Virus genome (UHGV): UHGV-0176901
DNA from: a virus
DNA length: 16,685 nt
Strand: one strand, 5' to 3'
In this document: piece by piece, positions 3,001-6,000 of the stretch
Layout of the letters: each line of letters starts with the position of its first letter
Position numbering within the stretch: the stretch's first letter is position 1
Made by a program: the position numbers

Positions 3001-6000
3001 GTAGCTTGTCGGAGCTGATCGCCTCCTGACTTTGCAGATTTGCACGACGAGCTCTACGGCGAGAAGCTGCGGTTCCTTTAAATTCTGTTTTTCTGGACAT
3101 AGATTCCTCCCGAATAAACTTTGGCGATGCAATCTCGAAGCCCCTCCTGAGACGGTTGCTTCGGCATTGCATCCCACAGCTTATGTGGTTGGGTGATCTG
3201 GCTTTTCAGCCACGTAGTCGAGTGTTCGACGTTGTTTAAAGAGCCTGCCAGTCTGTTCCGTTTGGCTTCCAGCTTCCTGCTGATGACTAAATAGTACGGG
3301 ACGTAGTTGATTAAGTCAACACAAACACTCTAAATGTGGTTAGTTTTTTTATAACTCTATGTATTTTATTGATTTATATTTTGGGAAAGAAAGTTGGCGC
3401 CAAGTTTTCACCAAAAGTGGTGAAATCCCTAAACCCTGTAGCCCGTCAAGAAGCTGGCCCGTGGTGCAGGAGATTCACTAGGGGTAGTGCAGGAGATTCA
3501 CTAGGGGTAGTGCAGGAGATTCACTAGGGGTAGTGCAGGAGATTCACCACCCTGGTGCAGGAGATTCACTAGGGGGTGGTGCAGGAGCTGCACCCAGAAC
3601 CAGTCACTCTTTTGAACCAGTCAATGAACCTAAAAACATTATGTTCGAACATGTCCGAACAGAGTGTGAAAAAACTCCTGACCGTCACGAAGAAACCGAC
3701 AAGGCATTCGAGGAAATATTCTGGTGTGCAGGCATGCGGAAAGCCGGTCTCGGCAACCATTAGTTACGTCAATGGCGTTTAAACGCCATAGGAAGCGCTG
3801 TAGAGAGATAAACAACTGTCAGACATTAAAATGTACGTGTGGGCGTAAATATTGCGTCAGAATGCGATTCAGGAGGTTTGGGGTTGGTTCACCAGGATTT
3901 GGAGTGTGGTATTTTTGCTTGCATTAAAAATGCACGAGATGTACTATAATAGCGTGGTTACCAATGTTGGGAAGGAAATATGAACAACCTTAAGAAATAT
4001 CGAAAGTCAGTGAGCATCAGTCAAACAATACTTGCTAAGGCAGTTGGATGCACACAGGGGGCTGTCGGTCATTGGGAAAGTGGTCGTCGCATGCCAGATC
4101 TTAAAACATGCCGTGCTCTCGTTGCTTACCTGAACAAGTTAGGCGCAAATGTAAGTCTTGATGACGTGTTCCCGCCGGAACACAAAGCCGCTTAATAAGC
4201 GGGACTGCTCTTTGTAACAACGGACATTCGTCCTACGTCGCTGAAAAGCGAGTTCCAAGATATCTGACCAACTAAGGCTATATGCGTTTCCACGCATACC
4301 TTTCAACTAACTATTCACTATTGGTGAATTAACAAATGACACAAGCAAGTTACAGCAAGCCAACACAGCGAGAAATTGATCGCGCAGAAACTGATTTACT
4401 CATCAACCTGTCAACGCTTACCCAGCGCGGTCTGGCAAAGATGATTGGCTGTCATGAATAGAAAGCACAAATTACAGGAGAAGACACAATGAGTATGATT
4501 CTGATTGAGAAAGCAATGAGAACTAAGGTTGGGAACCCGCGAAGAAAACTGATTCTGCTTAAACTTGCCGATAACGCCAATGACAATGGCGAATGCTGGT
4601 TTTCATATCAAGATCTCGCTTATCAGTGCGATATTAGCAGATCGACAGTAATTGGTCACATTTTAGCACTGGAAAAGACTGGGGTTTTGAATTTGGAGCC
4701 AGGAAGTAACCAGCCGAAGTTTGCTCGCCTGATGCTTAAATAAGCATTAACAAACACAACCAATTGGAGGTGAAAAAATGAGTATGATTCTGATGGTGAA
4801 GGCAATGGGAGCCAAAGTTGGAAACCCGCTCAGAAAACTGGTTCTGCTTAAACTTGCCGATAACGCCAATGACAATGGCGAATGCTGGCCTTCATATCAG
4901 CATATCGCTGACCAGTGCGAGATTAGCAAACGCTCCGTGATTAACCATATTGAGGCTCTTTGTGAGGCTGGCTTGCTAAAAAAAGTCACCCGAAAAGGTG
5001 AAAAAGGCAACTCAAGTAATATCTATATTCTTCGGCTTGGGGGTGCAGGAGATTCACTAGGGGTAGTGCAGGAGATTCACCACCCTGGTGCAGGAGATTC
5101 ACTAGGGGGTGGTGCAGGAGCTGCACCCAGAACCAGTCACTCTTTTGAACCAGTCAATGAACCTAAAAACATTATGTTCGAACATGTCCGAACAGAGTGT
5201 GAAAAAACTCCTGACCGTCACGAAGAAACCGACAAGGCATTCGAGGAAATATTCTGGTGTGCAGGCATGCGGAAAGCCGGGAAGAAAAACGCAGCTTCAG
5301 CATTCAGAACACAGTTCAGGGAATGGCGTAAAACTACAAGGGGTACGGCAAGCGAGTTTGCCACGATGCTGGCAGAAGACATCGCATGCAGGAGTGGTAA
5401 GCAGTTCGGATTCGACAGGTTGTTACCATCGAGCTACCTGAACGGTCAACGCTGGAACGACGAGAAGCCAGAAACTATTCAACCACAATCCAAACCATCA
5501 TCCGCAATCACCGTATCGAAAACTGGCTACGTGTTTTTCGACAGGTGAACCATGAAATCAAAAATCAAATCGCTACTGGTCGCTGGTTATAACCACGGCT
5601 GGTTAAGTATTTCGTTTGTCGATTTCTGGTTTAAAAATCTCAATCCGAGGGAATCATGAGGCCAAGTGAACTCAGCGACCTGCTTTGGGCGCAGGTTGAC
5701 AGGGTGGCTCCGCACCTGTTGCCAAACGGCAAGAAAGAGGGGCATGAGTGGGTTGCCGGTAACGTCAACGGTGACAAGGGAAACAGCCTTAAGGTCAACC
5801 TTAGCGGCAAGAAAAAATGGGCTGATTTCGCTGAGGGAGACGGCGGTGACATGCTTGATTTGTGGATGGCATGTCGTGGAATTAACCTGCATCAGGCTAT
5901 GCAGGAAGCGAAAGCATTTCTCGGAATCAAGGATGACGATCACCATTTCGATGCCAAACGTGAGAAGAAATTCTCCAGACCTGACCGCAAGAAAATCGCC

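What the first reader, a model, noticed from the sequence alone, without database searches (positions are those of the whole stretch)
4336..4743. Truncated cII-like gene followed by a stand-alone copy of the initiator HTH domain
The cII-like frame stops after 41 codons, inside the predicted HTH. It is followed by an 84-aa ORF that duplicates only the N-terminal DNA-binding domain of the O-like initiator, without the iteron region or C-terminal domain. This looks like a recombination scar that removed the 3' end of cII. The free HTH domain could compete with the initiator at the origin iterons or act as a regulator, and the lysogeny-establishment function of CII is probably lost.
Basis: partly seen in the sequence, partly recalled or inferred. 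Interest (0 to 1): 0.5.

Follow-up and report, generated by a model that had tools for sequence, protein, structure and literature searches.

The report
Gene stubs in an ex-temperate phage
The truncated cII gene and the small stand-alone copy of the replication initiator's DNA-binding domain are real, but they are most likely leftover recombination scars in a P22/lambda-like phage lineage that has lost its whole lysogeny apparatus.

Summary
4336-4461 is the first 41 codons of an HK97-type cII (100% aa identity). Homology stops at 4459-4463, and the TAG stop is created by the joint. 4489-4743 encodes an 84-aa winged-helix (HTH_36) domain, 70% identical to the N-terminus of the resident O-like initiator (4778-5548). 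It ends exactly where the iteron-encoded linker would begin.

It is not an assembly artefact: at least 12 independent metagenome contigs carry the same arrangement.

It is also not a fresh duplicate. O' comes from a different allele, partly like phage 24B O. It deviates at 8 of 36 highly conserved family positions, including all three conserved wing residues. It shows 4-6 times more unique amino-acid changes than working alleles, and it is polymorphic through a short gene-conversion patch copied from O.

The context changes the picture. The repressor gene cI is absent and is replaced by a second copy of the origin (R1, 3461-3750). Sibling contigs show no int/xis where P22 has them. The nearest isolate, phiKp_30, lost cI and cII independently.

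Best reading: these are scars of module exchange and deletion in a lineage that has become obligately lytic. A regulatory role for O' at the two iteron arrays is not excluded.

The parts
2828..3172 (-). N-type antiterminator gene (gene callers use 2828-3100). It marks the left side of the immunity region.
   Evidence: Pfam N_peptide E=2.4e-32. 95.7% identical to the E. coli prophage L002 over 2533-3392.
3393..3911 (.). Replacement segment that occupies the place of the cI repressor gene and PRM. No repressor ORF is present.
   Evidence: N-side homology to L002 ends at 3392 (=L002 2295). cro-side homology starts at 3912 (=L002 3056). In L002 that interval holds the LexA-family repressor gene, 2347-3042. 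No S24/cI-like ORF was found in the window.
3461..3750 (.). R1: a second copy of the origin region, with six iterons (starts 3464, 3487, 3510, 3533, 3555, 3579) plus the downstream stretch that R2 shares. It is non-coding or decaying.
   Evidence: 3510-3747 is 100% identical to 5043-5280. In sibling contigs R1 is 95-97% identical to R2, has 5 iterons at 22-nt spacing, and carries a 1-nt indel that frameshifts the relic ORF.
3749..3879 (.). Intergenic-type remnant to the right of R1. It contains an 18-bp perfect palindrome at 3772-3789.
   Evidence: 76% identical to the O-primase spacer of phiKp_30 and 75% to the window's own primase-ninB spacer 8650-8750. Scores were 100 and 52, against a shuffle maximum of 26.
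3980..4195 (+). cro-like HTH_3 regulator.
   Evidence: Pfam HTH_3 E=1.5e-11. 3912-4463 is 88% identical to L002 cro-cII.
4336..4461 (+). cII': the first 41 codons of an HK97-type cII, cut inside the HTH.
4345..4358 (-). TTGC-N6-TTGC box on the minus strand inside the first codons of cII'. This is the position of the CII-binding site of PRE in lambda (own knowledge). It is a relic, with neither CII nor cI to serve.
   Evidence: Three such boxes occur in the window against 1.4 expected, so the call rests on position, not statistics.
4459..4464 (.). Joint 1: the cII coding sequence fused to the 3' end of a DUF2740-type ORF. The TAG stop is created here.
   Evidence: Ungapped comparison with HK97: identical up to 4459, unrelated after 4463.
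4463..4488 (+). Leader of O': a remnant of the DUF2740 3' end, with the Shine-Dalgarno AGGAG at 4476-4480, 8 nt before the ATG.
   Evidence: By-eye comparison of the leaders printed for 24B, SI8, APC_JM3.2 and phiKp_30 (no alignment was computed). Sequence.
4489..4743 (+). O': an 84-aa stand-alone winged-helix domain, the stub of a second allele of the O-like initiator.
4611..4632 (+). Polymorphic patch in O'. The window has QDLAYQCD; the sibling variant P0260 has QHIADQCE. At all six differing nucleotides the variant equals the resident O, so this is a gene-conversion tract.
4744..4777 (+). Joint 2 and the leader of the resident O. This is a second DUF2740-3'-end-like leader directly after the O' stop.
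   Evidence: No match for 4670-4790 in 5,426 E. coli genomes.
4778..5548 (+). Resident O-like initiator (HTH_36 / DnaD_N type, 256 aa).
   Evidence: Pfam. 94% identical to 24B from 4775 onward.
5043..5280 (.). R2: the in-gene origin, with four iterons (starts 5043, 5066, 5088, 5112) plus the adjacent stretch.
5656..8562 (+). Primase-helicase (Toprim + AAA) carrying a ~341-aa LAGLIDADG intein (about 6769-7791).
   Evidence: Pfam. The intein-less homologue in L002 aligns to 5164-6768 and 7792-8617.

Best explanation
The interval holds two gene stubs left by illegitimate or homeologous recombination in the early-right operon of a ~41-kb P22-like/lambdoid phage lineage that has shed its lysogeny functions.

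cII' (shown): an HK97-type cII was joined after codon 41 to the last ~26 nt of the small DUF2740 ORF that normally precedes O. The product lacks the recognition helix and the entire C-terminal part.

Loss of function (inferred): cII' cannot activate PRE, PI or PaQ. There would be nothing to activate anyway, because the cI gene is absent and no int/xis was found where P22 has them.

O' (inferred): this is the winged-helix domain of a previous or foreign O allele. It was left behind when the present O plus primase-helicase module was joined in just after the wing, where the iterons begin. It keeps a good ribosome-binding site and lies in the PR transcript, so an 84-aa protein is probably made. 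It seems to be under relaxed constraint and has no required role. Loss of the conserved wing residues may have been favoured because a stub that still bound the iterons would interfere with the working initiator.

R1 (inferred): the duplicate origin that replaces cI may be a third O-derived remnant, possibly of a collapsed duplication of the replication module. Short gene conversion keeps O' partly similar to O and R1 similar to R2.
For: Breakpoints and leaders:
-.

Complete wHTH, then stop:
- The tail aligns with the wing of full-length Vibrio and Aeromonas initiators.
- AF2 mean pLDDT 88.8, with the order H-H-E-H-H-E-E.

Relaxed or altered constraint on O':
- 8 of 36 positions that are >=90% conserved deviate. 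The mean for 125 full-length family members is 1.0 and the maximum is 5. All 3 conserved wing positions are lost.
- dN/dS is 0.43 for O' vs 24B, against 0.10-0.15 between working alleles.
- The relative-rate test gives 11-13 unique changes in O' against 2-3 in the comparators, p 0.01-0.035. The control comparison gives 5:5.
- A 4-aa polymorphism at conserved positions is tolerated.

No coherent stand-alone family:
- Short homologues are 'partial', frameshifted or end in unrelated tails.

Lysogeny loss:
- cI is replaced.
- No S24 repressor was found.
- In sibling contigs the early-left genes abut the tailspike with no int/xis between them.
- phiKp_30 lacks cI independently and keeps only the 3' end of a lambda-type cII.

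Real, not artefact:
- At least 12 contigs, assemblies from several ERZ series.
Against: - The O' ORF is intact, keeps its Shine-Dalgarno sequence, and ends precisely at a domain boundary. That is also what a selected mini-protein would look like.
- Most recognition-helix residues conserved in the family (S50, V54, H57, I58, L61) are retained.
- The lineage carries two iteron arrays flanking PR, a layout that could give an iteron-binding protein something to do.
- All contigs belong to one ~99%-identical lineage. There are no SNPs between 4060 and 5522 except the conversion patch, so purifying selection on O' cannot be measured directly.
- Faster protein evolution fits neofunctionalisation as well as decay.
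- Part of the ~41-kb genome was not inspected, so a repressor or integrase elsewhere is not formally excluded.
Confidence: 0.6

Rival explanations
1. O' is a working small iteron-binding regulator. It is made early from PR and binds the iterons of R1 and/or R2. It might compete with the full initiator, pair the two arrays, or repress nearby promoters. The effect would be to tune when and how often the phage origin fires, much as extra iterons and truncated Rep forms control copy number in iteron plasmids.
For: - Intact ORF with SD AGGAG 8 nt upstream.
- Predicted complete wHTH fold.
- Recognition-helix residues conserved in the family are retained.
- Iteron sequences are widely shared among alleles of this family.
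- Two iteron arrays lie 1.5 kb apart around PR-cro-O'.
- PDB fold hits include RepA_N-type plasmid initiator DNA-binding domains (4pql, 5kbj, 4pt7), but at weak scores.
Against: - The three near-invariant wing residues are lost, P38F sits at a 100%-conserved Pro, and L18R and D45Y are also unusual.
- dN/dS and unique-change counts are elevated.
- Both the QDLAYQCD and QHIADQCE forms circulate.
- No independent lineage has the same architecture.
- Comparable short forms elsewhere are frameshifts or fragments.
Confidence: 0.2
2. O' acts on other phages or on the initiator protein rather than on the phage's own DNA. One version: it blocks the origins of co-infecting relatives that use 24B-type iterons. 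Another version: it forms mixed oligomers with O through the DnaD_N-like winged helix.
For: - The recognition-helix region of O' is closer to 24B-type O than to the resident O. Windows 4639-4698 are 73-80% vs 43-50% nt identical.
- The resident O matches DnaD_N weakly over residues 22-85, at 25.0 bits, below Pfam's 27-bit cut-off. In DnaD that domain mediates oligomerisation (own knowledge).
Against: There is no direct evidence. The same signs of relaxed constraint apply as for the first rival. The architecture is confined to a single lineage.
Confidence: 0.08
3. The arrangement is an assembly chimera caused by the repeated O and iteron sequences.
For: - Many contigs break at R1/R2.
- Several 1,652-nt k119 contigs are bounded by a 119-nt overlap in R.
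Against: - The full path N-R1-cro-cII'-O'-O-primase is assembled contiguously in several 16-41 kb contigs (SPAdes-type NODE and k119) from different samples.
- In some contigs R1 is distinguishable from R2 (95-97% identity).
- Both joints that flank O' lie in unique sequence.
Confidence: 0.01
4. The 41-aa CII fragment is itself a functional short regulator.
For: It keeps its start codon and the upstream sequence, which is identical to HK97 apart from 2 nt.
Against: - It covers only profile positions 1-37 of 91 and ends inside the HTH.
- No gene caller called it in any of the contigs listed.
- Every one of 1,376 E. coli matches is to a full-length CII gene, and no other record shares the joint.
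- Its stop codon is created by the joint.
Confidence: 0.02

Closest known systems
CII transcriptional activator of lambdoid phages (Pfam PF05269; HK97 gp52, lambda CII)
   Same: Residues 1-41 are identical to HK97 CII. The upstream region and the TTGC-N6-TTGC box in the first codons are in the same position.
   Different: It has only 41 of 98 residues. The recognition helix and the C-terminal part are missing, and the targets (a cI gene; int) are absent from the lineage.
O-like replication initiators of the HTH_36/DnaD_N type (phage 24B 'O', Min27 O, SI8, ZF40 gp14, Vibrio phiV039C)
   Same: An N-terminal winged helix, 55-71% identical. All 35 columns that are invariant in the six-sequence alignment A1 (which includes O' itself) are present in O'. 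It has the same leader and SD as genuine O genes.
   Different: O' stops after the wing. It has no in-gene iterons and no C-terminal domain. Conserved wing residues are lost and there are unusual substitutions such as P38F.
Virulent derivatives of temperate phages (lambda vir, P22 vir; natural 'ex-temperate' phages) and mosaic joints made by Rad52-type recombinases (PMC3945230)
   Same: Repressor, cII and apparently int/xis are lost while the rest of the lambdoid early region is kept. The lineage encodes a Rad52-family recombinase plus SSB. The nearest isolate, phiKp_30, lost the same genes through different joints.
   Different: Classical vir mutants carry operator point mutations. Here the genes themselves are deleted or replaced, and a second origin copy sits in place of cI. 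The lifestyle is inferred from sequence only.
Iteron-plasmid copy-number control: extra iteron clusters and shortened Rep forms, e.g. P1 incA and R6K pi (own knowledge, not tested)
   Same: An extra iteron array lies outside the working origin, and a protein consists of the initiator's DNA-binding domain only.
   Different: There is no evidence that either element is used. The element is a lytic phage genome, not a plasmid, and O' shows relaxed constraint.

Membership tests
Phage_CII (PF05269) functional activator | Sequence homology to CII | tested here: met
   E=1.8e-11. 41/41 residues identical to HK97 CII.
Phage_CII (PF05269) functional activator | Complete ~91-position domain with the full HTH and the C-terminal oligomerisation part | tested here: not met
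   Only profile positions 1-37 of 91 are covered, and the stop falls at codon 42.
Phage_CII (PF05269) functional activator | Presence of its targets (a cI gene downstream of PRE; int) | tested here: not met
   cI is replaced by R1. No int/xis lies between the early-left genes and the tailspike in sibling contigs.
O-like initiator, HTH_36/DnaD_N type | N-terminal winged-helix DNA-binding domain | tested here: met
   HTH_36 E=1.7e-10. AF2 pLDDT 88.8 with a wHTH topology.
O-like initiator, HTH_36/DnaD_N type | Near-invariant wing residues (R72, S76, N77 in O' numbering) | tested here: not met
   G, P and K are found at those positions. 0 of 125 full-length members deviate at more than one of them.
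O-like initiator, HTH_36/DnaD_N type | Iterons inside the gene, after the wHTH | tested here: not met
   O' stops at 4743 and has no iteron core in or after it. The only iteron cores in the window are at 3464-3596 and 5043-5130.
O-like initiator, HTH_36/DnaD_N type | C-terminal domain that couples to the helicase/primase | tested here: not met
   O' is 84 aa, whereas 124 of the 150 listed family representatives are 190 aa or longer.
Conserved stand-alone short HTH_36 protein family | Independent lineages with a short ORF that ends at a common point | tested here: not met
   Short hits end at different points in unrelated tails, are annotated 'partial', or are frameshifted O genes.
Temperate lambdoid immunity region | A cI-type repressor gene between PL/N and PR/cro | tested here: not met
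   The 519-bp interval 3393-3911 has no repressor ORF. The reference prophage has a 696-bp LexA-family gene there.
Temperate lambdoid immunity region | Ability to form lysogens | not testable with these tools
   This needs a phage isolate and a host.
Iteron-based copy-control system (plasmid type) | An extra iteron array outside the working origin | tested here: met
   R1 has 5-6 iterons, 1.5 kb upstream of the in-gene origin.
Iteron-based copy-control system (plasmid type) | The array and the short protein measurably affect replication | not testable with these tools
   This needs binding and replication assays.

The most novel reading that the evidence does not exclude
O' and the duplicate origin R1 form a plasmid-like control circuit in a lytic phage. 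An early-made protein consisting only of a DNA-binding domain would bind two iteron arrays that bracket PR. It would set the timing or direction of origin firing, or shut off the origins of related co-infecting phages. If so, the region would be an invention that accompanied the switch from temperate to virulent life, not debris.
Probability: 0.12. Interest if true: 0.6.

Novelty: new member of a known kind. Interest (0 to 1): 0.3.

Why it matters
The finding mainly shows how a temperate P22/lambda-like phage becomes virulent in nature. The route here is stepwise deletion and replacement of cI, cII and int/xis, not operator point mutations. A related isolate lost the same genes independently.

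It also shows what a swap of the replication module leaves behind: an expressed stub of the old initiator that then decays and is patched by gene conversion.

For annotation, it warns that 'helix-turn-helix domain-containing protein' ORFs next to O-like genes, and many 'partial' ones in databases, are often such stubs or assembly breaks at iterons.

If the stub or the second origin turned out to be used, it would be a simple natural system for studying initiator competition at iterons.

Tried and rejected
- **Assembly artefact.** Rejected. At least 12 contigs in assemblies from several ERZ series share the joints, and R1 differs from R2 in some of them.
- **Recent tandem duplication of the resident O N-terminus.** Rejected. 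Nucleotide identity is only 76% over 70 codons, and the 3' third is closer to 24B-type O.
- **Conserved short wHTH family.** Rejected after reading the short hits and three genomic contexts. P0248 is a 1-nt frameshift of a full O gene with the same iterons.
- **Search for the donor allele or the same architecture elsewhere.** Nothing was found:
  - The word-indexed protein search returned only the protein itself.
  - IMG/VR and GTDB back-translated scans gave no relatives.
  - The joint sequence is absent from IMG/VR. In the metagenome collection it occurs only in a contig already known.
  - 4670-4790 has no match in 5,426 E. coli genomes.
  - No phage or E. coli record covers 80% or more of 3100-5700.
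- **Within-lineage SNPs to measure selection on O'.** Uninformative. There are no SNPs between 4060 and 5522 among ten contigs. The only variant is the conversion patch.
- **Rfam scan of the window.** No family reached threshold.
- **Promoter and terminator scan.** Counts were no higher than in shuffles. I could not define PR by consensus.
- **Origin of the R1 flanks (3393-3460, 3880-3911).** No matches.
- **Literature searches.** I found no description of this lineage. The phiKp_30 paper calls that phage 'likely temperate' from in-silico analysis (PMC10581060). The record's lack of cI and cII makes that doubtful.
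Full report
**What the window is**

The window is a complete 16,685-bp metagenome contig (ENA ERZ1034973 NODE_1092). It carries the early region of a P22-like/lambdoid phage, in this order:
- early-left genes: kil, cIII and N (2828-3172, minus strand)
- a cro-like gene (3980-4195)
- the two ORFs of the finding
- an O-like initiator (4778-5548)
- a primase-helicase with an intein (5656-8562)
- ninB, PAPS reductase, ANT/Rha genes, RusA, Q, lysozyme and Rz

The closest isolate is Klebsiella phage phiKp_30, at 95% identity over 49% of the window.

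**Checking the observation**

Both ORFs exist as described.

The 41-aa ORF matches Pfam Phage_CII over profile positions 1-37 of 91 (E=1.8e-11). It is identical to residues 1-41 of the 98-aa HK97 CII. Nucleotide identity to HK97 holds from 4300 to 4459, with 3 mismatches before the joint. It then collapses after 4463. The TAG at 4459-4461 arises at the joint, where HK97 has TCG.

HK97 and 1,376 E. coli records match 4300-4463, and every listed match ends at 4463. All are annotated as full-length CII genes.

The 84-aa ORF matches HTH_36 (E=1.7e-10). It is 70% identical (47/67) to the N-terminus of the resident initiator. DNA identity is 80% over 4463-4662 vs 4752-4951.

**Not an artefact**

The exact 84-aa protein is encoded on 11 contigs, and a 4-residue variant on 2 more. 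The assemblies carry four different ERZ accession prefixes and three contig-naming styles (SPAdes-type NODE, k119, scaffold). Four of the contigs are 39-41 kb long. The stretch 2801-5700 is 98.6-100% identical in all of them.

Contigs often break at a 238-nt repeat, described below. Several k119 contigs of 1,652 nt are bounded by a 119-nt overlap in that repeat. This is what a real dispersed repeat does to an assembly graph.

**Anatomy of O'**

tblastn and a multiple alignment show that the last 17 residues (NLEPGSNQPKFARLMLK) align with the wing hairpin of full-length initiators from Vibrio and Aeromonas phages. O' ends where their iteron-encoded Gly-rich linker starts. By eye, the tail also lines up codon by codon with the 24B wing (LNQSNVFYLTLD), with four codons missing from the loop.

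AlphaFold2, run with a 44-sequence alignment, gives mean pLDDT 88.8 and a complete winged helix: H3-11, H17-29, E35-37, H40-47, H51-64, E67-69, E78-81. Confidence is lower (about 70) in the wing loop.

PDB fold matches are generic winged helices plus RepA_N-type plasmid initiator domains (4pql, 5kbj, 4pt7). None reaches E<=0.001.

By eye, the 26 nt before the O' start and the 34 nt before the O start both resemble the 3' end of the small DUF2740 ORF. That ORF overlaps the O start in 24B, SI8, APC_JM3.2 and phiKp_30. O' keeps an AGGAG 8 nt upstream of its ATG.

The simplest history is therefore:
- a ~0.3-kb deletion from cII codon 42 to the DUF2740 3' end
- a separate joint between the end of the wing of one O allele and the leader of another

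**O' is not a recent copy and looks unconstrained**

Over 70 codons O' is 76% identical in nucleotides to the resident O and 80% to 24B-type O. Its last 60 nt are 73-80% identical to 24B but only 43-50% to the resident O.

dN/dS is 0.43 for O' against 24B. Between working alleles it is 0.10-0.15.

I ran a relative-rate test with Vibrio phage initiators as outgroup. O' has 11-13 unique amino-acid changes, against 2-3 in 24B O or the resident O (p=0.01-0.035). The control, 24B against the resident O, gives 5:5.

I also compared O' with 125 sequences: 124 full-length representatives from an exhaustive search, plus the resident O. That search found 1,894 hits at E<=1e-3, and 124 of the 150 listed are 190 aa or longer. 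O' deviates at 8 of the 36 positions that are at least 90% conserved. The family mean is 1.0 and the maximum is 5. The eight are:
- M6I
- V22I
- P38F (Pro is 100% conserved)
- I43L
- E48D
- R72G, S76P and N77K (all three conserved wing positions)

A circulating variant, P0260, differs at four clustered residues: QHIADQCE instead of QDLAYQCD. At all six nucleotide differences (4611-4632) the variant equals the resident O 289 bp downstream. This is a short gene-conversion tract. Radically different residues at conserved positions are therefore both tolerated.

Apart from that patch there are no SNPs between 4060 and 5522 among ten contigs. Selection cannot be measured directly within the lineage.

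**No stand-alone family**

Short HTH_36 proteins are common in the databases, but they do not form a family:
- They end at different points in unrelated tails.
- Many are annotated 'partial', which I attribute to contigs breaking at the iterons.
- Some are frameshifts. The 73-aa P0248, seen on 19 contigs, is a 1-nt deletion in an A-run of an otherwise complete O gene with the same iterons.

No other lineage with a stub next to a full O was found. I checked 50,697 phage records, 5,426 E. coli genomes, IMG/VR, and one genome for each of 185,579 bacterial and archaeal species (GTDB).

**The surroundings change the reading**

In the reference prophage L002, the interval between the N side and cro holds a 696-bp LexA-family repressor gene. 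In the window, homology to that prophage stops at 3392 and resumes at 3912.

The 519 bp between those points have no repressor ORF. They consist of R1 (3461-3750), a copy of the initiator's internal origin. R1 has six iterons plus the downstream stretch, and it is 100% identical to 5043-5280 over 238 nt. R1 is followed by an intergenic-type remnant (3749-3879). That remnant is 75-76% identical to the window's primase-ninB spacer and to phiKp_30's O-primase spacer.

In sibling contigs R1 has five iterons at 22-nt spacing and is 95-97% identical to R2. It also carries a 1-nt indel that frameshifts the relic reading frame. R1 is therefore real and non-coding, and it exchanges sequence with R2.

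No S24 or cI-type protein is encoded anywhere in the window. In sibling contigs the early-left operon runs straight into the tailspike gene, with a 63-bp gap. No int or xis is present where P22 has them.

phiKp_30 has only about 170 bp between its N-side homology and cro. It retains just the 3' end of a lambda-type cII (...ERSEQIQMEF). This is an independent loss of the same genes.

A TTGC-N6-TTGC box on the minus strand at 4345-4358 sits where lambda's PRE CII site lies. It now has neither an activator nor a gene to drive (the position argument is from own knowledge).

**Interpretation**

- Shown: two joints, a truncated cII, a stand-alone wHTH ORF from a different allele, an absent cI, a duplicated origin, and gene conversion between the copies.
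- Inferred: the lineage is obligately lytic, and cII' is inert.
- Inferred: O' is a stub left by replacement or duplication of the replication module. The joint lies at the wHTH/iteron boundary, which is also the classical mosaic joint of O genes (own knowledge of lambdoid O hybrids).
- Inferred: O' has since drifted.
- Speculative: a stub that still bound the widely shared iterons would compete with the working initiator. Loss of its wing contacts may therefore have been favoured.

The lineage encodes a Rad52-family recombinase and SSB. That kind of enzyme has been shown to make mosaic joints between diverged phage sequences (PMC3945230, title and abstract as listed).

I give this reading about 0.6. 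The main rival, at about 0.2, is that O' is a working iteron-binding regulator acting on R1/R2. The sequence data do not exclude it, because the ORF, the SD, the fold and most recognition-helix residues are intact.

**Verdict**

The 'duplicate of the resident domain' part is not supported. The 'competitor at the iterons' idea remains an untested minority reading. This is a new example of known kinds of event: an ex-temperate phage and scars of module exchange. Interest is modest.

Noticed in passing
window 3461-3750 vs 5043-5280: A second copy of the origin (iterons plus the adjacent stretch) sits exactly where the cI repressor gene should be. The number, spacing and sequence of its iterons vary between sibling contigs, and in some contigs it has been converted to 100% identity with the in-gene origin.
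   Followed up: partly
window 6769-7791 (inside ORF 5656-8562): The primase-helicase carries a ~341-aa intein with Hint and LAGLIDADG matches. A 98%-identical E. coli prophage homologue lacks it precisely. Phage 24B P is also annotated with a 2,907-nt gene.
   Followed up: partly
window 3772-3789: An 18-bp perfect palindrome, ATGGCGTTTAAACGCCAT, lies just right of R1. Its function is unknown.
   Followed up: no
window 3931, 3936, 4058, 4059: Outside R1 and the O' conversion patch, four of the six point differences among ten sibling contigs fall just upstream of cro and inside cro. They could be operator or regulator variants.
   Followed up: no
window 10633-11403, 12353-13087, 15429-15989 (and one more left of the window in siblings): Three ANT/Rha-type antirepressor-like genes are present in a phage that has no repressor of its own.
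   Followed up: no
L003/L004 (phiKp_30, LC768498.2): The published isolate nearest to this lineage has no cI-sized gene between N-side homology and cro. It keeps only the last codons of a lambda-type cII. Its paper nonetheless calls it 'likely temperate' from in-silico analysis (PMC10581060). Its O gene runs across the ends of the linear record.
   Followed up: partly
L010-L012 (1,532-1,652-nt k119 contigs): These contigs span exactly from R1 to R2, and two have a 119-nt terminal overlap. This is expected for a graph loop, but it also fits a 1,533-bp unit that could be amplified or excised by recombination between the repeats.
   Followed up: no
window 1156-2220 (minus strand): A 354-aa ORF with no Pfam match is full of imperfect 27-37-nt repeats (families D4 and D5). 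The partial homologue in an E. coli prophage is annotated as a coiled-coil protein.
   Followed up: no
L031-L033 (enterobacterial prophages), position 3001-3222: A 73-aa HTH_36 ORF found on 19 contigs is a frameshifted O gene: one A is missing from an A-run. It has the same GGTGCAGGAGATTCAC iterons. The identical frameshift occurs in several genomes.
   Followed up: partly
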